This document shows positions 2,527 through 51,797 of a stretch of DNA of 64,000 bases, in pieces (the first letter of the stretch is position 1; every line of letters begins with the position of its first letter). The DNA is from Escherichia phage vB_Eco_F31. The position numbers were made by a program, and so were the translations under genes. The notes beneath the pieces are model-generated. The model was not told where the DNA came from. It saw only the letters and a list, made by a program, of their open reading frames with translations, and made no database searches. The DNA lies in sequence record OP870147.1. One strand, given 5' to 3'.

Positions 2527-3627
2527 TTACGCTGTGAAGATTTTATCCCACATCGCAACAACTGCATCTCGATTATACTTCTTCCATACTGCTTCAGCAC
2601 GTTTAACTCGAGCTTCGTATGTGTCAGTGAATTCTAATACAGCTTTTGTGTAAAGCGCAACTACTTCTTTCTTAGGAGTAGAGGAATCAATTTCTACACG
2701 CACAGTATCTGGGTCGTATTCGAATGTCGCATGAGGATAATCCTTAAAAACTAACTGGATTACAGGGACACCTTTAGAGATGGCTTCAATAGAACTATTC
2801 TCTACCGTACCTGTGTCAGGACACGTATTAATAAGTGCTTTAGCTGTTTTAAGACATTCCATAATTTCACTGTGTGGAGCATCAATAATAACAGGATATT
2901 TAGCTGGTGGTGCCCATTTGCTTGGACAATAACCAATACCATTTTCGCCTAGTGCTTTAATCGCTTCAAGAGCAACATCAGTACGACGCATTTTAGTGTC
3001 ATAACGTTGTGCACTAATAATCAGATCAGTCGCCGGAAGAACTTCAGGTTTCTCATTCAAACAAATAACCGGATAATCTTCGGCTTCAAACAACGGATTT
3101 GCTCGCCAATAATCATAATCGATTTTGTCAGTCAGACCTGAAGTCATATAACAATATTTGCGTTCAAATTCACGGAAGGCTTTAGTAGGAGCATAACTCT
3201 TACCGCCATTCTTATGAATTTGAATAGTTTGGTCCCAAATTTGAACAATACCACGAGATACCGGTTCAAATGGTGTTGCCATAAAATTCTTGTGAACTTT
3301 AGAGAGACCTGCGTCTTTAATTGCCTGAACGGTTAGTTTAGTCGGTTCCATAGTAACAACAAAATCATATTCATGGATGCCGGCTAGTTCAACAATCTTA
3401 CGAGCCATAGTATAACTCATACCTAGACTGAATTTAGTCAGATGACCAACAGGATGATGATTAACTTTCCAATCACCAAATGTGTCATTATCAAAACCGA
3501 TATAATCAATATCGGCACCAATAGAAACTAAATATTTCAACACATTTAAATGTACTGCTTCAAGACCACCTTGTACACGTTCAGGATTAAATGGGACTGC
3601 ACGAGATGGGATAAACATAACTTTCAT
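2527..3627 (-). CDS. GT-B fold glycosyltransferase, candidate hmC pentosyl(arabinosyl)transferase
   Basis: 366-aa ORF; N-terminal MKVMFIPS...GGLE and C-terminal G-x-VENSSIEAISKGVPVI resemble the GT1/GT4 E-x7-E donor-binding region; lies between rIIA and topoisomerase where T4 has no such gene. Confidence 0.55.
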   Translation of the reverse strand: MKVMFIPSRAVPFNPERVQGGLEAVHLNVLKYLVSIGADIDYIGFDNDTFGDWKVNHHPVGHLTKFSLGMSYTMARKIVELAGIHEYDFVVTMEPTKLTVQAIKDAGLSKVHKNFMATPFEPVSRGIVQIWDQTIQIHKNGGKSYAPTKAFREFERKYCYMTSGLTDKIDYDYWRANPLFEAEDYPVICLNEKPEVLPATDLIISAQRYDTKMRRTDVALEAIKALGENGIGYCPSKWAPPAKYPVIIDAPHSEIMECLKTAKALINTCPDTGTVENSSIEAISKGVPVIQLVFKDYPHATFEYDPDTVRVEIDSSTPKKEVVALYTKAVLEFTDTYEARVKRAEAVWKKYNRDAVVAMWDKIFTA

Positions 3628-5535: not shown

Positions 5536-5551
5536 AAAGGGCCGAAGCCCT
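5526..5551 (-). terminator. hairpin terminator with UUCG loop
   Basis: AAGGGC-TTCG-GCCCTT followed by TTTTTGC on the minus strand; directly followed by a MotA-box-like promoter for gene 39. Confidence 0.55.
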
Positions 5552-5976
5552 TATTTAAATTTAATTTTCTGAAGTGTATCAATTGCAGCCAAACGCCCTT
5601 GTTCACTTTTAACTGTAATGACCACATCGCCTGATACGATCACCGAACCATCAACAAATTCTATAGAGCCTTTTTTGAAATCGACAGCTGTATCTGGTTC
5701 CTGAACTTCTTCAAAGAATTTAAATTCTGCACCATAAAGCAGAATATCACCTTGCATACTATGAATAGTTCGGCCATAATCGCCTACGGCTTCTACAGCA
5801 ATAACCGAAACACCGTAACCAATCATCTCTTCCACAATAAAATCTTTGGACAATAAAGTAGTATGCAGATTAGTATTAAGACGTTTACCAGTCGTATTAA
5901 GAATTCTCAAGAAATTATCTTCCTGTCCTTTGATAATACGATATTTCTTACCAACTTCAAAACCTTTAAAAGCCAT
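5551..5976 (-). CDS. hypothetical protein (goF position by synteny)
   Basis: 141-aa ORF downstream of gene 39; same size as T4 goF, not otherwise verified. Confidence 0.45.
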   Translation of the reverse strand: MAFKGFEVGKKYRIIKGQEDNFLRILNTTGKRLNTNLHTTLLSKDFIVEEMIGYGVSVIAVEAVGDYGRTIHSMQGDILLYGAEFKFFEEVQEPDTAVDFKKGSIEFVDGSVIVSGDVVITVKSEQGRLAAIDTLQKIKFK

Positions 5977-6160: not shown

Positions 6161-6571
6161 TTATTCCTTAAAATGTGCTTTCAACATTTGATACAAAGAC
6201 CATGCCTGGTCGTTATTTTCGATAGTAATCGTCATCACCGGAAATTCAGACAATTCATCAAGTTCACCAGAATCTTGCTCTTCGGACGCTTGATACGGAT
6301 TTCCAACTTCGTCAAAGAACTCTGCTTCATTCGTGGAAAGCCAGATAAAGTTTTCATCAAGAATATCACCGCCTGTTGCGTATCCAACCGTGCCAGTAGA
6401 TGTCACAATTTTAGTAGGACGACCAAGATGGTCAACATCTAATACTTTAAACGGTTCCATGCCAAGGCGTCGTGCATAAATCCCATTATCAGTGTGGTCT
6501 TTAATAAACTCTTCTTGGGCACGTTTATCTATGAACCGATACCATTTATTAACTTCAAATTTAATAGCCAT
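6161..6571 (-). CDS. hypothetical protein
   Basis: 136-aa ORF, acidic C-terminal region, tightly packed with neighbours. Confidence 0.5.
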
Positions 6572-6798
6572 TAGTAAGTTTCCTTCCAGTAAGTTGTACC
6601 ATTTTCAGTGATTTCACGGAAGATACCATAGATAGGCATTTCATCACCGAGTTTTTCGTAAACGTAAACCACTTCGGTGTAGCATAAAAATTCGGTCCAG
6701 CTTTTCTGTACAACAACTAAATCAGGATTAAACAGAACATCTTCAAACTCATCGATGTTTGAATCAGTAGTTACGTTTTTAATGATTTGACGTTTCAT
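6571..6798 (-). CDS. hypothetical protein
   Basis: 75-aa ORF with upstream GAGGAG RBS and early-type promoter. Confidence 0.45.
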
Positions 6799-6825
6799 AA
6801 TATTCTCCTCTTGTTTTGATAGGTC

Positions 6826-6857
6826 TATAGTATCATAGACTATAGTTGTTGTACATC
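6826..6857 (-). promoter_or_regulatory. early-type promoter (GTACA -35, TACTAT -10)
   Basis: Minus strand TGTACA-N17-TACTAT-AGACCTATC upstream of the 75-aa ORF. Confidence 0.4.
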
Positions 6858-7380
6858 ATTTTAGCAAAATAAAATCAACTTGTTCTGCCAATGAACGTCT
6901 AAACATTAATTGACAACTTCCGAGGATGAAATCAGGTGCTTCATAGACCGCGATGTAGTATCCTTTAGCTTTCAAGAGTTCAACATCCACCTGGTCATCA
7001 AACCATGCATAAACCGCGTCAACACTTTCAAATCCAAAATAGAACCCTTGAGCCCAATCTTCACTCAATTCAAATGTGTGCTCAATTCTATAGTATCTTA
7101 AGATATTTTGTTCAAGGAGTTTGTCTTCATTTACTGTAGGACGATTAGGGACATTATAGTTGTCGCCGTGATGGTAGAAGTTACCTGAGAGTATTCCATG
7201 CTTATCAAGGAACTCCCATGTTTCTTCAGAGTTGTCGGTGCCCGACCAACCGTATGGCGAACGAGGTTCTTTATTCCAAGAGGTTTCCCAAATTCTGACG
7301 GCTTTACCGTCTTCGATAGCAATTCCTGGTAATGATTCACGTTGAGTACAAAAACTACGTTCTACGCGGTAAACTAACAT
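6856..7380 (-). CDS. hypothetical protein
   Basis: 174 aa counted from the internal ATG (MLVYRVERS) that has an AGGAG RBS; the ORF-track start at 7437 is an alternative codon. Confidence 0.5.
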   Translation of the reverse strand: MLVYRVERSFCTQRESLPGIAIEDGKAVRIWETSWNKEPRSPYGWSGTDNSEETWEFLDKHGILSGNFYHHGDNYNVPNRPTVNEDKLLEQNILRYYRIEHTFELSEDWAQGFYFGFESVDAVYAWFDDQVDVELLKAKGYYIAVYEAPDFILGSCQLMFRRSLAEQVDFILLK

Positions 7381-7406
7381 ATTATTCTCCTCTGGTTGAT
7401 ATGGAT

Positions 7407-7436
7407 ATAATATCAAAACCGGAGGAGAAGTAAACA
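7407..7436 (-). promoter_or_regulatory. early promoter GTTTAC-N17-TATTAT
   Basis: Minus strand GTTTAC + 17 nt + TATTAT upstream of ORF 6856-7380. Confidence 0.5.
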
Positions 7437-7439
7437 ACT

Positions 7440-7859
7440 TTATGCGAAAGCAGCTGGGCTATATTTTTTAATTTGGAATTCAGGAACTACCATGAACTGA
7501 CCAGCGAAAACGATGTTATAAAGCTTAACACCATCTTCTACCCAACGGTCGCTAATAAATCCGGCGATTTGCTTAGTTTTCCACGGTGTTCCATCAGTTG
7601 CCGCAGCAATAGTGAATTCATGGTCTTTTTCAACAGAAACTGATCTGCATAGTCCCCATTTGAACGCTTTTTCTTCTGGCTCAATGAACTGGCTTGAGAC
7701 GTAGCCAATATTACCATTAGCATCACGAACTTTAACTTGGTTACGACCAAAAACCGGATCACTCACAGAAAGAACTTCAACCAACTTCCCGGCAACTTTA
7801 GAGCGAGAAGCAACAGATACATATACGTAATCACCTGTAGAGAGATTTACAATATTCAT
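7440..7859 (-). CDS. hypothetical protein, member 1 of a tandem paralogue trio
   Basis: 139 aa; shares C-terminal motif GFISDRWVEDGVKLYNIVFAGQF with the two upstream ORFs. Confidence 0.55.
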   Translation of the reverse strand: MNIVNLSTGDYVYVSVASRSKVAGKLVEVLSVSDPVFGRNQVKVRDANGNIGYVSSQFIEPEEKAFKWGLCRSVSVEKDHEFTIAAATDGTPWKTKQIAGFISDRWVEDGVKLYNIVFAGQFMVVPEFQIKKYSPAAFA

Positions 7860-7868
7860 AATAATTCC

Positions 7869-8354
7869 TTAAGCTTTACGAGGAGACACATAACGAGTGA
7901 TTTCAGATTCTTTAACAACTCGGAAGTCACCTAAGAATACGATATTGTATAACTTTTCACCATCTTCTACCCATTGGTCACTAATGAAGCCACACATGGT
8001 ATCAGTTGTGCTTGGATAACCATATTCATCGATGAAGTCAAATTCTTTATCAGTCTGGAATTCAACACCTTTACACAAGGCCCATTTGAACTGTACATTA
8101 GGCTCTGTGGATTCAACTTTTTCTCTTGAAGCAAAAGCACTACTCGCAGGAGTTTCCAAGAACTTTGCACGAACATAAGCGAACTGAGTTTCCCTCGACC
8201 CAAGACTAGGAATAATACGAACTTTTACCTCAGAATCTTCATCTTTAACGCCTTCTTTAAGTTGAATACTTACAACTTCGACCAATTTTCCTGCTGCTTT
8301 AGAACGAGATTTTTTAGATACGCGAACGATTTCACCAATAATACCAAGATTCAT
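7869..8354 (-). CDS. hypothetical protein, member 2 of a tandem paralogue trio
   Basis: 161 aa; C-terminal GFISDQWVEDGEKLYNIVFLGDF; own early promoter. Confidence 0.55.
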   Translation of the reverse strand: MNLGIIGEIVRVSKKSRSKAAGKLVEVVSIQLKEGVKDEDSEVKVRIIPSLGSRETQFAYVRAKFLETPASSAFASREKVESTEPNVQFKWALCKGVEFQTDKEFDFIDEYGYPSTTDTMCGFISDQWVEDGEKLYNIVFLGDFRVVKESEITRYVSPRKA

Positions 8355-8383
8355 AATTTTCTCTCTTTGTTTAAGTTGAATTC

Positions 8384-8413
8384 ATTATACTCCATCCGTC
8401 CTTGGATGTACAA
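8384..8413 (-). promoter_or_regulatory. early promoter cassette (variant of the repeated cassette)
   Basis: Minus strand TGTACA-N17-GTATAAT with CCAAGGACGGATGG in the spacer. Confidence 0.45.
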
Positions 8414-8415
8414 CA

Positions 8416-8910
8416 TTAATTAAGGATATTAACCACAGCACTACGTGGAACTACACTAAAATCACCTGCATGAACAACGTTCAGAAGTTCAACACCGTCT
8501 TCAATCCACTGATCAGTCACCCATCCATTTACTGGACCAGCGAATGGGCGTCGAATTGAAACATATTTACACAACAAATCAGTAGGCTCAATAGGCTTAA
8601 TCAGAGTACCGTACATACAAGCGATATCCATATCAATACAGATATCTTTAACGGGTTCTACTTCTTCAATCAACAGTTCAAAGTCGGTGCTTGGAAGGGC
8701 GGTGGTAGAAATTGTACCATATGAATTTTTAATTTCTAAGAATAACCAAGGGCCTTCAACTTGTTTGATGAAGTTAACAATAGTGAAACTATTACCTTGA
8801 GTGGCACCTAAAATTTCACAAAACTTTTCATAAGCTCGCACTGAAGCACCGTACCAGTTGATTTGTTTTTCGTCTTTCAGGATGTAAGTAGCCGTAGTAT
8901 TGATATTCAT
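8416..8910 (-). CDS. hypothetical protein, member 3 of a tandem paralogue trio
   Basis: 164 aa; C-terminal GWVTDQWIEDGVELLNVVHAGDF; own early promoter. Confidence 0.55.
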   Translation of the reverse strand: MNINTTATYILKDEKQINWYGASVRAYEKFCEILGATQGNSFTIVNFIKQVEGPWLFLEIKNSYGTISTTALPSTDFELLIEEVEPVKDICIDMDIACMYGTLIKPIEPTDLLCKYVSIRRPFAGPVNGWVTDQWIEDGVELLNVVHAGDFSVVPRSAVVNILN

Positions 8911-8942
8911 AATGTTTTTTCCTGTTTGGTTAAGATAGAAAG

Positions 8943-8973
8943 ATTATACTCCAACCATCCTTGGTTGTAAACT
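8943..8973 (-). repeat. repeated early promoter cassette (copy 1), PeSL-like
   Basis: attatactccaaccatccttggttgta identical to copies near 50750 and 51770; GTTTAC-N17-GTATAAT on the minus strand. Confidence 0.55.
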
Positions 8974-8977
8974 GATT

Positions 8978-9655
8978 TTATCGCTGTTTTACACTTAACG
9001 GGTCAGGATTCTCAGGGACATCTTCAAGGCCAAGCGCATAACGCTGAGCATATTTTAACATCAAAATATCTTTAGCACAATCATGAATACTATCATGGGC
9101 AACGAATCCTTTTAGCGTACCCATCGGTAATGGACACATACTTAATCCTCGTGTCAACGAGTAAGCTTCGATTGCCGTACGAATATCGCGTTGAGCCCAG
9201 AATTTAACCGGTTCTAATTTATCAGTATCAATATCTGGTTCAAGAACACCTTCATCACGATAGAGGTCACGAATCAAATCGACCAAGATCGGGAAGTCAA
9301 AACTCATACCACGGCACCACATCTGTGATTTCCATTGGTCAACTTTATTAGCTCGACAATAATCTAAAAAGATTTTAATGCCTTCAAGCGTAGTGACATC
9401 GTCTTCAGACGGAGCCAAGTTTTTACGCGCTTCAGCCGATTGTTCTTTCCACCATTTCATAGTGGATTTAGCGAAAACTCGCTTCCCTTTCTGAGAAGCT
9501 AAATTAAATTTAATTCGCTTACCTCGTTGAACAAGTTCTTCAAATGATTCAACAACTTCAGGGTCGGAATTATATGCAATAACCGCAAGGTCAATAACAG
9601 CCGCTTTTGATGTATTGCCGAATGTTTCAAAATCTATAATAACATCAGTGCTCAT
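8978..9655 (-). CDS. dexA: exonuclease A (DEDD-type 3'-5' exonuclease)
   Basis: 225 aa; N-terminal IIDFETFG exonuclease motif; syntenic with T4 dexA next to dda. Confidence 0.75.
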   Translation of the reverse strand: MSTDVIIDFETFGNTSKAAVIDLAVIAYNSDPEVVESFEELVQRGKRIKFNLASQKGKRVFAKSTMKWWKEQSAEARKNLAPSEDDVTTLEGIKIFLDYCRANKVDQWKSQMWCRGMSFDFPILVDLIRDLYRDEGVLEPDIDTDKLEPVKFWAQRDIRTAIEAYSLTRGLSMCPLPMGTLKGFVAHDSIHDCAKDILMLKYAQRYALGLEDVPENPDPLSVKQR

Positions 9656-9664
9656 AATTTTCTC

Positions 9665-10978
9665 TCAAATAAAATGGACGTCAAAACGACCGCGAGTCGT
9701 GCCGACATACAATAACTGTTTAGCTAATTCTGAATCGGCATAATGGATACACGGTGTATAAACAAAGGCCGTGTCAACAGACATACCCTGGGCCTTATGG
9801 AAGGTTGATACAGGTAGTGCCTTCACCTTAGTGAACATACGTTTAGCATCCCAGAACTCGCTCCATGGAGCTTTACCACCTTTATTCCAGAATTTGTATG
9901 TTTCTGCGGTCTTAGCCAAAAACAAATTGAATTTATAAAGCTCTTCTTCAGAAGAAATAACCTTTATATCTTCGCGGATGTATTCTTCATCATCCCCATA
10001 TGTTTCTACTGTAAGATTCCAGTATCGTATCATATATTCGCCTGAAACACCGCGTGCTTTAACGAATGTAGACGTTTCTACAGCATCTCGAATACGAACG
10101 AATTGCCCGTTATTGAAAAGCATTTCGGTCATATTTTTACCATCTAACTTATATGTCTTAGTAAATGGCTCTTGTAGAACAATGACTTCGTCTTTAATAA
10201 ATGGTTTTTCTGTTTCAAGAAGTTTTCGGCGAATAATTGAATTTAACTTGTCCACCGACTTATTTGTGAATGCCATCATTCGATTTTCGAAAAGGTCTTC
10301 AGGAGTTTTAACGACGTTAAAATAGTTCATCATATACGATTTAAGGTCTGTATATCCATGAACACCGTGTCCATCAACTACTTTATCGTAAATCCATTTG
10401 CCATTACGAATATCAGTCGCAACATCAATAATTGGTGCATTGCTACGTTTAACTTCTGTAAGGTTGCATTGCACGAAGTCTTTGTGAGTGAAGAAAGGAC
10501 TTAGATACGCAGTTGATTCGCCTGGGTCTACCGGACGAATCTGGCATCGGTCGCCGATTCCAATTACTGTACACCATTTAGGGATACTAGCTAACATTAT
10601 TTTAAACAGAGAACGGTCGCACATTGACGCTTCATCAAATAACAGTACACGACACAAGGCTAAGTCGGGAACCTTTTTCTGTTCAAACAATACGTTTTCT
10701 TCGTATGTAGTTGGGTTGATTTTAAGAATGCTATGAATAGTCGATGCTTCTTGACCCGCAAGTTTGCTTAGAACTTTTTTAGCAGCATGTGTAGGAGCTG
10801 CTAAAATAATACCTGATTCTCCAGAAGAAATAAGGGCTTCAACGATGAATCTAGTAAGGGTTGTTTTACCTGTACCAGCAGGTCCATTAATAGTTACATG
10901 ATGTTTCTTTTCTTTAATAGCTTCCATAACAACGTTGAAGGCATTTTTCTGGCCTTCAGTCAAATCATCAAATGTCAT
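9665..10978 (-). CDS. dda: Dda DNA helicase (SF1B)
   Basis: 437 aa; Walker A GPAGTGKTT; near-colinear with the T4 Dda sequence as I recall it. Confidence 0.9.
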   Translation of the reverse strand: MTFDDLTEGQKNAFNVVMEAIKEKKHHVTINGPAGTGKTTLTRFIVEALISSGESGIILAAPTHAAKKVLSKLAGQEASTIHSILKINPTTYEENVLFEQKKVPDLALCRVLLFDEASMCDRSLFKIMLASIPKWCTVIGIGDRCQIRPVDPGESTAYLSPFFTHKDFVQCNLTEVKRSNAPIIDVATDIRNGKWIYDKVVDGHGVHGYTDLKSYMMNYFNVVKTPEDLFENRMMAFTNKSVDKLNSIIRRKLLETEKPFIKDEVIVLQEPFTKTYKLDGKNMTEMLFNNGQFVRIRDAVETSTFVKARGVSGEYMIRYWNLTVETYGDDEEYIREDIKVISSEEELYKFNLFLAKTAETYKFWNKGGKAPWSEFWDAKRMFTKVKALPVSTFHKAQGMSVDTAFVYTPCIHYADSELAKQLLYVGTTRGRFDVHFI

Positions 10979-50720: not shown

Positions 50721-50749
50721 AATATTTTCCTCTCGTTAAGATAAATTCA

Positions 50750-50778
50750 TTATACTCCAACCATCCTTGGTTGTAAAC
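50750..50778 (-). repeat. repeated early promoter cassette (copy 2), PeSL-like
   Basis: attatactccaaccatccttggttgtaaac; GTTTAC-N17-GTATAAT on the minus strand upstream of ORF 49770-50720. Confidence 0.55.
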
Positions 50779-51742: not shown

Positions 51743-51769
51743 TTTATATTCCTCATGTTGAAAAATTTA

Positions 51770-51797
51770 TTATACTCCAACCATCCTTGGTTGTACA
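51770..51797 (-). repeat. repeated early promoter cassette (copy 3), PeSL-like
   Basis: attatactccaaccatccttggttgtaca upstream of ORF 50783-51742. Confidence 0.55.

What the first reader, a model, noticed from the sequence alone, without database searches (positions are those of the whole stretch)
7440..8910. Three tandem paralogues with a conserved C-terminal domain, each with its own promoter
ORFs 7440-7859, 7869-8354 and 8416-8910 (139-164 aa) share the C-terminal block ISD(R/Q)W(V/I)EDG(V/E)(K/E)L(Y/L)N(I/V)V(F/H)AG(Q/D)F.VVP and an upstream FKW.LC segment, but their N-terminal halves differ. Tandem diversification with separate early promoters is typical of host-interaction or anti-defence gene families.
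Basis: seen in the sequence. Interest (0 to 1): 0.5.

Follow-up and report, generated by a model that had tools for sequence, protein, structure and literature searches.

The report
Phage motB, second motB, and motB.1
The three neighbouring genes are real relatives of each other, but they are the already described MotB / MotB.1 early-gene family of T4-like phages (proteins that coat DNA and disturb the host's H-NS gene silencing), so the finding is correct but ordinary.

Summary
Three minus-strand ORFs (7440-7859, 7869-8354, 8416-8910) share a C-terminal block far beyond chance: BLASTP E 1e-28, 2e-10 and 3e-10, and all three pass the Pfam PF17613 (MotB) cut-off.

The window is a Mosigvirus (RB69-like T4 relative). 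ORF2 is the MotB orthologue (58.6% to T4 MotB). ORF1 is a second, ancient MotB copy. ORF3 is the MotB.1 orthologue.

Two details of the finding are wrong:
- ORF1 and ORF2 share their N-terminal halves too (a KOW-like domain). Only ORF3 differs.
- ORF1 has no promoter of its own. It starts 9 nt after ORF2's stop. Only ORF2 and ORF3 have T4-early-type promoters.

The arrangement is published. Patterson-West et al. 2021 report two motB copies plus one motB.1 in RB69. Kim et al. 2025 report that the MotB.1 N-terminal domain is an LSm-like fold shared with GoF.

All three genes are under purifying selection (dN/dS 0.08-0.31), not diversifying.

Small additions from this work:
- The shared domain models as an SH3/Tudor-like small barrel rather than the published OB-fold.
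- The T4 reference motB.1 is truncated by one extra G that resequenced T4 genomes lack.
- The two promoters are copies of a cassette dispersed through the genome.

Novelty: already known. Interest: low.

The parts
8416..8910 (-). ORF3, 164 aa: orthologue of T4 MotB.1. It has an LSm-like N-terminal domain, a linker motif and a short MotB-type C-terminal domain.
   Evidence: 37% identity to T4 MotB.1, E 1e-26. phrog_2333 E 1.7e-82. Pfam PF17613 35.1 bits. AF2 model mean pLDDT 79.
8653..8910 (-). ORF3 N-terminal domain (aa 1-86), alpha/beta; the GoF / Frd.2 / MotB.1 'LSm-like' family.
   Evidence: hhalign against the N-terminal domain of the GoF paralogue at 5551-5976 gives probability 91.9%, E 7e-7; the KOW control gives 0.1%. 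PHROG cross-hit. Published in PMC12152347.
8587..8637 (-). ORF3 linker (aa 92-108) carrying the short motif IDMDIACMYGTLIKP. In other family members the same motif sits at the N-terminus.
   Evidence: Alignment A1. Motif count: 92 occurrences among the 275 fetched proteins, 69 within the first 40 residues and 23 internal. Low pLDDT over residues 86-106.
8419..8592 (-). ORF3 C-terminal domain (aa 107-164): the short form of the shared MotB domain. Five strands with a 3-residue helix between strands 4 and 5.
8943..8971 (-). T4-early-type promoter of ORF3 (TTTACA-N17-TATAAT); a copy of a dispersed promoter cassette.
   Evidence: The identical 29-mer is at 50749-50777.
7869..8354 (-). ORF2, 161 aa: orthologue of T4 MotB. 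It has a KOW-like N-terminal domain (aa 1-67, nt 8154-8354), a disordered linker, and a long C-terminal domain (aa 88-161, nt 7872-8093).
8384..8412 (-). T4-early-type promoter of the ORF2-ORF1 unit (TGTACA-N17-TATAAT); a variant of the same cassette.
   Evidence: (repeat D2: 76% over 54 nt).
7440..7859 (-). ORF1, 139 aa: second MotB copy specific to a sub-clade. It has a KOW-like N-terminal domain (nt 7671-7859) and a long C-terminal domain (nt 7443-7667), with almost no linker. It is probably co-transcribed with ORF2 (9-nt gap, AAGGAA Shine-Dalgarno sequence).
   Evidence: 41% identity to ORF2, E 1e-28. 36.6% to T4 MotB. phrog_1671 E 7e-51. Present at 80% identity or more in 207 of 760 MotB-bearing phage records. 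dN/dS 0.09-0.18.
6856..7380 (-). Context: homologue of T4 MotB.2 (174 aa from the ATG at 7380), with its own promoter-like site at 7434-7407. It is not a member of the paralogue family. It lies downstream of the motB genes here, whereas in T4 it lies upstream.
   Evidence: 34% identity to T4 MotB.2, E 4e-15. phrog_1106. T4 gene order. Promoter.

Best explanation
The locus is the motB.1 - motB - motB' block of a Mosigvirus (RB69-like member of the Tevenvirinae). It lies in the non-essential early region between dexA and cef.

ORF2 is MotB. In T4 this is an abundant early protein that binds DNA tightly and without sequence specificity, associates with H-NS/StpA on DNA, alters the H-NS footprint and derepresses part of the H-NS regulon. 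[quoted passage not shown]

ORF1 is an old, conserved second MotB copy with the same two domains but almost no linker. It is expressed from the motB promoter. ORF3 is MotB.1, which carries an LSm-like N-terminal domain (shared with GoF and Frd.2) on a shortened version of the same C-terminal domain.

The shared C-terminal block is a small five-stranded beta-barrel. I infer that it is the common nucleic-acid / nucleoid-targeting module, and that the different N-terminal domains and linker lengths give the three proteins different partners or binding modes.

Shown here: homology, domain boundaries, purifying selection, promoter motifs and distribution across phages. Taken from the literature for T4 MotB only: DNA binding and the effect on H-NS. 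Inferred: that ORF1 and ORF3 act on the nucleoid through the shared domain.
For: Identity of the genes:
- The window is 99.1% identical to Mosigvirus vB-Eco-KMB38.
- Context is dda-dexA upstream and cef-goF downstream.
- ORF2 is 58.6% identical to T4 MotB, ORF3 37% to T4 MotB.1, ORF1 36.6% to T4 MotB.
- Pfam PF17613 is above cut-off for all three.

Shared domain:
- E 2e-10 to 1e-28 pairwise; hhalign 99.6%.
- AF2 gives pLDDT 90 or more for both C-terminal domains.

Family range and architecture:
- The family is narrow. Only 24 cluster representatives reach E<=1e-3 among 1.84 billion proteins.
- In 23 related loci the rule is one MotB.1-type gene directly upstream of one MotB. Mosigvirus-like loci add the 139-aa copy. 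Distant phages carry a single KOW + short C-terminal domain gene.

Selection: dN/dS 0.08-0.31, with synonymous sites between paralogues saturated.

Published function and family description: PMC7827196, which explicitly notes RB69 with two motB and one motB.1; PMC12152347 for the MotB.1 N-terminal domain.
Against: - No experiment exists for ORF1-type or Mosigvirus proteins.
- T4 delta-motB.1 has wild-type burst size and latent period, and MotB.1 had no effect in an RNA reporter assay (PMC12152347; abstract). Its function is therefore open.
- Which MotB domain binds DNA is not known (PMC7827196).
- In the closest relative, KMB38, the ORF1 homologue is split by a frameshift. This is either a sequencing error or a sign of dispensability.
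Confidence: 0.72

Rival explanations
1. The family acts on RNA or transcription elongation rather than on the nucleoid. The KOW domains of ORF1 and ORF2 (as in NusG/Spt5/RfaH) and the LSm-like domain of ORF3 (as in Hfq) would engage RNA polymerase, the ribosome or RNA. The shared C-terminal barrel would be an RNA-binding or dimerisation module. This matches the historical name 'modifier of transcription'.
Against: [quoted passage not shown] Wild-type GoF and MotB.1 had no effect in the RNA reporter assay. T4 MotB binds DNA tightly.
Confidence: 0.15
2. The shared C-terminal block is mainly a protein-protein module, for homo- or hetero-oligomerisation among the three paralogues or for docking on H-NS/StpA. 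DNA contact would be made by the N-terminal domains. The three genes would then encode subunits of mixed complexes.
Against: A DNA-independent MotB/H-NS interaction could not be detected despite repeated attempts (PMC7827196). AlphaFold3 gave no confident homomultimers for MotB.1. PWWP and KOW barrels also bind nucleic acids.
Confidence: 0.25
3. One reading: a rapidly diversifying anti-defence gene family, each copy independently expressed and evolving to counter different host immune systems.
For: The location is a hyperplastic early region, and copy number and N-terminal modules vary between phages. H-NS is a xenogeneic silencer, so countering it is loosely 'anti-defence'.
Against: dN/dS is 0.08-0.31. 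The ORF1-type copy is 84-100% identical across more than 200 phage records. ORF1 has no promoter of its own. No known defence system is reported as a target.
Confidence: 0.08

Closest known systems
T4 MotB (Pfam PF17613; PHROG 1671), a phage nucleoid-associated DNA-binding protein
   Same: ORF2 is its orthologue: 58.6% identity, the same length, the same two-domain layout, and the same neighbourhood between dexA and cef. ORF1 has the same two domains.
   Different: ORF1 is a second copy absent from T4. It lacks the roughly 25-aa inter-domain linker, is 36.6% identical to T4 MotB, and lies 9 nt downstream of motB without a promoter.
T4 MotB.1 (PHROG 2333), the 'category 2' MotB.1 group of Patterson-West et al. 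2021 and the LSm-like fold family of Kim et al. 2025
   Same: ORF3 has the same N-terminal domain, the same short C-terminal domain and the same position immediately upstream of motB.
   Different: ORF3 carries a 21-aa insert with the DMDIACMYGTLIKP motif between the domains, which T4 MotB.1 lacks. It has its own promoter, whereas T4 motB.1 follows motB.2 by 10 nt. The T4 reference protein (119 aa) is truncated within the C-terminal block by a 1-nt difference.
RB69 motB locus (two motB + one motB.1), described in PMC7827196
   Same: The same genus (Mosigvirus) and the same three-gene content (P0164 is RB69 MotB, 78% identical to ORF2).
   Different: The extra 29-aa 'category 3' peptide reported for RB69 has no counterpart in this window. 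No fourth copy of the block was found.
SH3-like small beta-barrels (KOW of NusG/Spt5, Tudor, chromo, PWWP, LSm)
   Different: There is no sequence-level relationship: hhalign of the C-terminal domain against the KOW domain gives probability below 1%, and Pfam finds only PF17613. Aromatic-cage or other ligand-reading residues were not examined.

Membership tests
MotB family (Pfam PF17613) | Sequence match to the family profile above the curated gathering score (25 bits) | tested here: met
   ORF1 75.6 bits, ORF2 181.7 bits, ORF3 35.1 bits. The isolated C-terminal domains also match.
MotB family (Pfam PF17613) | N-terminal KOW-like domain (SRSKxAGKLVEV motif) | tested here: met
   Met for ORF1 and ORF2: KOW profile E 6e-21 and 6e-32, all-beta N-terminal domain in the model. 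Not met for ORF3, which is therefore MotB.1-type and not MotB proper.
MotB family (Pfam PF17613) | Conserved C-terminal core G(F/W)(I/V)(S/T)DQW(V/I)EDGxxLxN(I/V)V | tested here: met
   Present in all three, with invariant D, W, E, G, L, N and V columns in the family alignments.
MotB family (Pfam PF17613) | Early-gene location in the dexA-cef non-essential region of a Tevenvirinae genome | tested here: met
   dda, dexA, cef and goF flank the block. Same region as in T4 and in 23 related loci.
MotB family (Pfam PF17613) | Tight non-specific DNA binding, co-purification with H-NS/StpA on DNA | not testable with these tools
   Known only for T4 MotB (PMC7827196). Needs biochemistry.
MotB.1 / LSm-like fold family (GoF, Frd.2, MotB.1; PMC12152347) | N-terminal domain of about 85 aa homologous to the GoF-type N-terminal domain | tested here: met
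   ORF3 N-terminal domain against the N-terminal domain of the GoF paralogue (5551-5976 family): hhalign 91.9%, E 7e-7. Against GoF alone: 23%, E 9e-4. Control: 0.1%. PHROG cross-hit 6e-4. The model has five strands plus helices.
OB-fold (cold-shock / eIF5A C-terminal type), the published assignment for the MotB C-terminal domain | Five-stranded barrel with the helix between strands 3 and 4; structural neighbours are OB-fold proteins | tested here: inconclusive
PeSL promoter cassettes of T4-like phages (PMC2839356, PMC4122927) | Conserved early promoter TTTACW-N17-TAYWAT, repeated in hyperplastic regions next to variable ORFs | tested here: met
   The pattern gives 25 matches against 7.8 expected. 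The ORF3 promoter 29-mer recurs identically at 50749-50777 and with one mismatch at 51769-51797, in front of genes that show no detectable similarity to each other or to the motB genes.
PeSL promoter cassettes of T4-like phages (PMC2839356, PMC4122927) | Associated stem-loop / terminator element | not tested
   No terminator-like site was found on the minus strand in 6500-9800. Folding of the cassette was not done.

The most novel reading that the evidence does not exclude
The conserved C-terminal block is a Tudor/KOW-like SH3 barrel, not an OB-fold, and it serves as a portable nucleoid-targeting module. Tevenvirinae would then have combined it repeatedly with different heads (KOW, one or two LSm-like domains, a short DxDxxSxY peptide). 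MotB, MotB' and MotB.1 would deliver distinct activities to H-NS-coated DNA. A corollary is that the true T4 MotB.1 is a 143-aa protein carrying this module, so published work on the 13.8-kDa annotated form may have studied a truncated protein.
Probability: 0.3. Interest if true: 0.4.

Novelty: already known. Interest (0 to 1): 0.15.

Why it matters
The finding matters little as a discovery. The family, its shared C-terminal domain, the differing N-terminal domains and the two-motB-plus-motB.1 arrangement in RB69-type phages are all in print (PMC7827196, PMC12152347).

It has modest practical value for people working on MotB and MotB.1:
1. The extra MotB copy is an old, well-conserved gene present in about a quarter of MotB-encoding phage records. 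Redundancy should therefore be considered in knock-out experiments.
2. The fold of the shared domain deserves re-examination (SH3-like versus OB).
3. The T4 reference annotation of motB.1 probably lacks most of that domain because of a single-base error.

Tried and rejected
- **Chance similarity.** Rejected by pairwise E-values and profile comparisons.
- **Recent gene conversion or recent tandem duplication.** Rejected. Third-position identity in the shared block is only 30-50% and pS is 0.70-0.93.
- **Further copies of the domain elsewhere in the window.** None found.
- **Relatives outside T4-like phages.** A full HMMER scan of 1.84 billion representatives gave only 24 hits at E<=1e-3, none to the N-terminal domain of GoF-like proteins.
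- **Sequence match to any solved structure.** None. The best E was 0.7.
- **Foldseek against viral models, to see GoF directly.** It returned only MotB-family and low-quality multi-domain alignments, so it was not informative for the GoF link.
- **Sequence relationship between the C-terminal domain and the KOW or LSm-like domains.** None.
- **Structured RNA in the region.** Only a sub-threshold Y_RNA hit (25.9 bits against a gathering score of 38), treated as chance.
- **Co-duplication of promoter and gene as the explanation for the similar ORF2 and ORF3 upstream regions.** Rejected. The same cassette precedes other genes with no detectable similarity 42 kb away.
- **The NAR 2021 MotB paper (PMC8450097).** It is not held in the library, so only its title is cited, from a reference list.

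Full report
**1. What is at the coordinates**

Three ORFs lie head to tail on the minus strand: 8416-8910 (ORF3, 164 aa), 7869-8354 (ORF2, 161 aa) and 7440-7859 (ORF1, 139 aa). Upstream on that strand are a Dda helicase (9665-10978) and an exonuclease A homologue (8978-9655). Downstream are a 174-aa ORF (6856-7380), cef (6571-6798) and goF (6161-6571).

A megablast of 6800-9700 finds 631 phage records. The best is Escherichia phage vB-Eco-KMB38 at 99.1% identity, classified as Straboviridae; Tevenvirinae; Mosigvirus. The window is therefore an RB69-like relative of T4.

**2. Is the similarity real**

Yes.
- ORF1 and ORF2 align over essentially their whole length: 41% identity, 150 columns, E 1e-28.
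- ORF3 shares only the last 29-36 residues with the other two: E 2e-10 and 3e-10.
- Profile-profile comparison of the C-terminal domains of the two subfamilies gives probability 99.6%, E 1.5e-24. It covers 50 of the 58 residues of the short domain. The homology therefore includes the strand carrying the 'LC(K/R)' residues. The long form differs by an internal insertion.
- All three proteins pass the curated threshold of Pfam PF17613 'MotB, modifier of transcription'.
- An HMM of the block finds no fourth copy in the 64-kb window.

**3. Corrections to the finding**

(a) The N-terminal halves of ORF1 and ORF2 do not differ. Both carry the KOW-like SRSKxAGKLVEV domain. Only ORF3 has a different N-terminus.

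(b) The promoter scan finds excellent T4-early-type sites in front of ORF3 (TTTACA-17-TATAAT, 8971-8943) and ORF2 (TGTACA-17-TATAAT, 8412-8384). It also finds a weaker one in front of the 174-aa ORF (7434-7407). ORF1 begins 9 nt after the ORF2 stop codon, and no minus-strand site lies in the 3' part of ORF2. ORF1 is most simply co-transcribed with ORF2.

**4. Identity of the genes**

Against the T4 reference annotation, from the comparison:

| Window ORF | T4 counterpart | Identity | E-value |
|---|---|---|---|
| ORF2 | MotB | 58.6% | 5e-60 |
| ORF3 | MotB.1 | 37% | 1e-26 |
| ORF1 | MotB | 36.6% | 1e-24 |
| 174-aa ORF (6856-7380) | MotB.2 | 34% | 4e-15 |

Gene order differs between the two phages. 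T4 has dexA-motB.2-motB.1-motB-cef. This phage has dexA-motB.1-motB-motB'-motB.2-cef.

**5. Distribution**

- tblastn with ORF1 finds 760 phage records with a MotB-family gene. Of these, 207 carry an ORF1-type copy at 80% identity or more, always as a second place in the record. None falls between 60% and 80%, and 553 have only MotB proper at below 60%.
- In 23 IMG/VR loci the usual layout is one MotB.1-type gene directly upstream of one MotB gene. MotB.1-type genes carry one or two N-terminal modules plus the short C-terminal domain.
- Mosigvirus-like loci add the 139-aa copy.
- More distant phages have a single gene with a KOW domain fused to the short C-terminal domain.
- The family is narrow. 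A full HMMER scan of 1.84 billion cluster representatives returns only 24 hits at E<=1e-3.

**6. Selection**

- Between the paralogues, synonymous sites in the shared block are saturated (pS 0.70-0.93; third-position identity 30-50%), while amino-acid identity is 53-73%.
- Between this phage and three related loci, dN/dS is 0.08-0.12 for ORF3, 0.25-0.31 for ORF2 and 0.09-0.18 for ORF1.

These are old duplicates kept by purifying selection. They are not a fast-diversifying array.

**7. Structure**

AlphaFold2 with family alignments gives two-domain models.
- ORF2: mean pLDDT 80. The N-terminal domain (1-67) is all-beta, residues 70-85 are disordered, and the C-terminal domain (88-161) has pLDDT above 90.
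- ORF3: mean pLDDT 79. The N-terminal domain (1-85) is alpha/beta, residues 86-106 have low confidence, and the C-terminal domain (107-164) has pLDDT about 90.

Both C-terminal domains are five strands with a three-residue helix between strands 4 and 5. This is the SH3-like order, not the OB order.

One caveat applies. The searches used whole models, and the N-terminal domains are themselves small barrels. The assignment of the C-terminal domain is therefore an inference, not a demonstration. The published HHpred assignment is OB-fold (PMC7827196).

**8. ORF3 N-terminal domain**

hhalign of the MotB.1 N-terminal alignment gives the following:

| Compared with | Probability | E-value |
|---|---|---|
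| N-terminal domain of the GoF paralogue family (window 5551-5976 and homologues) | 91.9% | 7e-7 (78 columns) |
| GoF alone | 23% | 9e-4 |
| KOW control | 0.1% | not significant |

A PHROG cross-hit agrees. [quoted passage not shown]

**9. What is known about function**

From PMC7827196, for T4 MotB:
- It is an abundant early protein and is toxic when over-expressed.
- It improves phage fitness.
- It binds modified and unmodified DNA tightly without sequence specificity.
- It co-purifies with H-NS and StpA only in the presence of DNA.
- It changes the H-NS DNase footprint.
- It up-regulates 75 host genes, about one third of them H-NS-repressed.

[quoted passage not shown] I could cite only its title from a reference list, because the paper is not held.

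The 2021 paper already describes four categories of MotB/MotB.1 proteins with a common C-terminal domain. It states that RB69 has two motB copies, one motB.1 and a 29-aa peptide.

T4 delta-motB.1 has a normal burst size and latent period, and MotB.1 did not affect an RNA reporter.

**10. Interpretation**

ORF2 is MotB and most likely acts as a phage nucleoid-associated protein. ORF1 is a conserved second copy, probably with an overlapping DNA-binding role but with different inter-domain geometry because it has almost no linker. ORF3 (MotB.1) joins an LSm-like head to the same C-terminal barrel.

I infer that the barrel is the shared nucleic-acid / nucleoid-targeting module. Alternatives are listed under rival explanations: an RNA or elongation role, a protein-protein module, and a diversifying anti-defence family.

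**11. Promoters as cassettes**

The 54 nt upstream of ORF2 and of ORF3 are 76% identical. The T4/PST PeSL promoter consensus TTTACW-N17-TAYWAT (PMC4122927) matches 25 times in the window against 7.8 expected.

The exact 29-mer in front of ORF3, including its spacer, recurs at 50749-50777, and with one mismatch at 51769-51797. There it precedes genes that show no detectable similarity to each other or to the motB genes.

The 'own promoters' are therefore copies of a dispersed early-promoter cassette. Such cassettes have been proposed to mediate gene shuffling in T4-type hyperplastic regions (PMC2839356, PMC4122927). That would also fit the different position of motB.2.

**12. Verdict**

The feature is an already described gene family in an already described arrangement. 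Novelty: already known. Interest: low.

Noticed in passing
L001 (T4 NC_000866) 3143-3310, compared with L003 (MT984581) 720-1151 and L004 (KJ477684); equivalent to window 8419-8530: The T4 reference motB.1 (119 aa, '13.8 kDa') ends in ...WVTDQWIGRWR* because of one extra G (GGATTGGAAGATGG against GGATT-GAAGATGG). Resequenced T4 genomes lack that G and encode a 143-aa protein with the complete MotB-type C-terminal domain. The +1 frame of the reference still reads EDGVELLNVVHAGEYSVVPRSAVVAILN*. Published T4 MotB.1 work quotes 13.8 kDa (PMC12152347), so it may concern a truncated form.
   Followed up: yes
L002 (phage vB-Eco-KMB38) 3144-3569, homologous to window 7440-7859: In the closest relative (99.1% identical) the ORF1 homologue is split into 95-aa and 46-aa stop-to-stop pieces, and only 279 nt are annotated. 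This is either a sequencing error or loss of the extra MotB copy.
   Followed up: partly
window 8943-8971, 8384-8412, 50749-50777, 51769-51797 (all minus strand): A promoter cassette, TTTACAACCAAGGATGGTTGGAGTATAAT plus a similar leader, is repeated with the spacer conserved. The copies precede genes of different PHROG families (motB.1, motB, phrog_1435, phrog_2351), and the two distal genes show no BLASTP similarity to each other. It looks like the PeSL-type mobile early-promoter cassettes described for T4-like phages.
   Followed up: partly
window 6856-7380 (minus strand), compared with T4 7661-8161: The MotB.2 homologue lies downstream of the motB genes here (next to cef) but upstream of motB.1 in T4. 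This is a local gene-order rearrangement within the early region, and each unit starts with an early-type promoter.
   Followed up: partly
window 8587-8637 (ORF3 aa 92-108); proteins P0029-P0120: A short motif, [DE]xD[ILVM]x[SC]xY followed by xxPhxP (IDMDIACMYGTLIKP), moves around within the family. It lies between the domains in ORF3-type and KOW+short-CTD proteins, at the extreme N-terminus in the 165-183-aa forms, and between domains in the roughly 250-aa forms. It is absent from T4 MotB.1. It may be a docking peptide; its function is unknown.
   Followed up: partly
window 5551-5976 and 6161-6571 (minus strand): Two further members of the GoF / LSm-like family lie within 3 kb of ORF3: GoF itself (75% identical to T4 GoF) and a 141-aa paralogue (phrog_622) that T4 lacks at this position. 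The region therefore holds three proteins with this N-terminal fold.
   Followed up: partly
protein P0149 (163 aa, metagenomic contigs up to 2779 nt): This is a chimeric MotB. Its N-terminal domain and linker are like T4 MotB, and its C-terminal domain is like the ORF1-type copy (KLCSSVLVVKDHKFTIASATDGTPW...). This suggests recombination between the two MotB paralogue lineages.
   Followed up: no
proteins P0270 (842 aa) and P0272 (1038 aa): Two long proteins match the MotB.1 profile in 7 and 13 short stretches at weak E-values (2e-6 and 2e-4). They may be repeat proteins or low-complexity artefacts. They were not examined.
   Followed up: no
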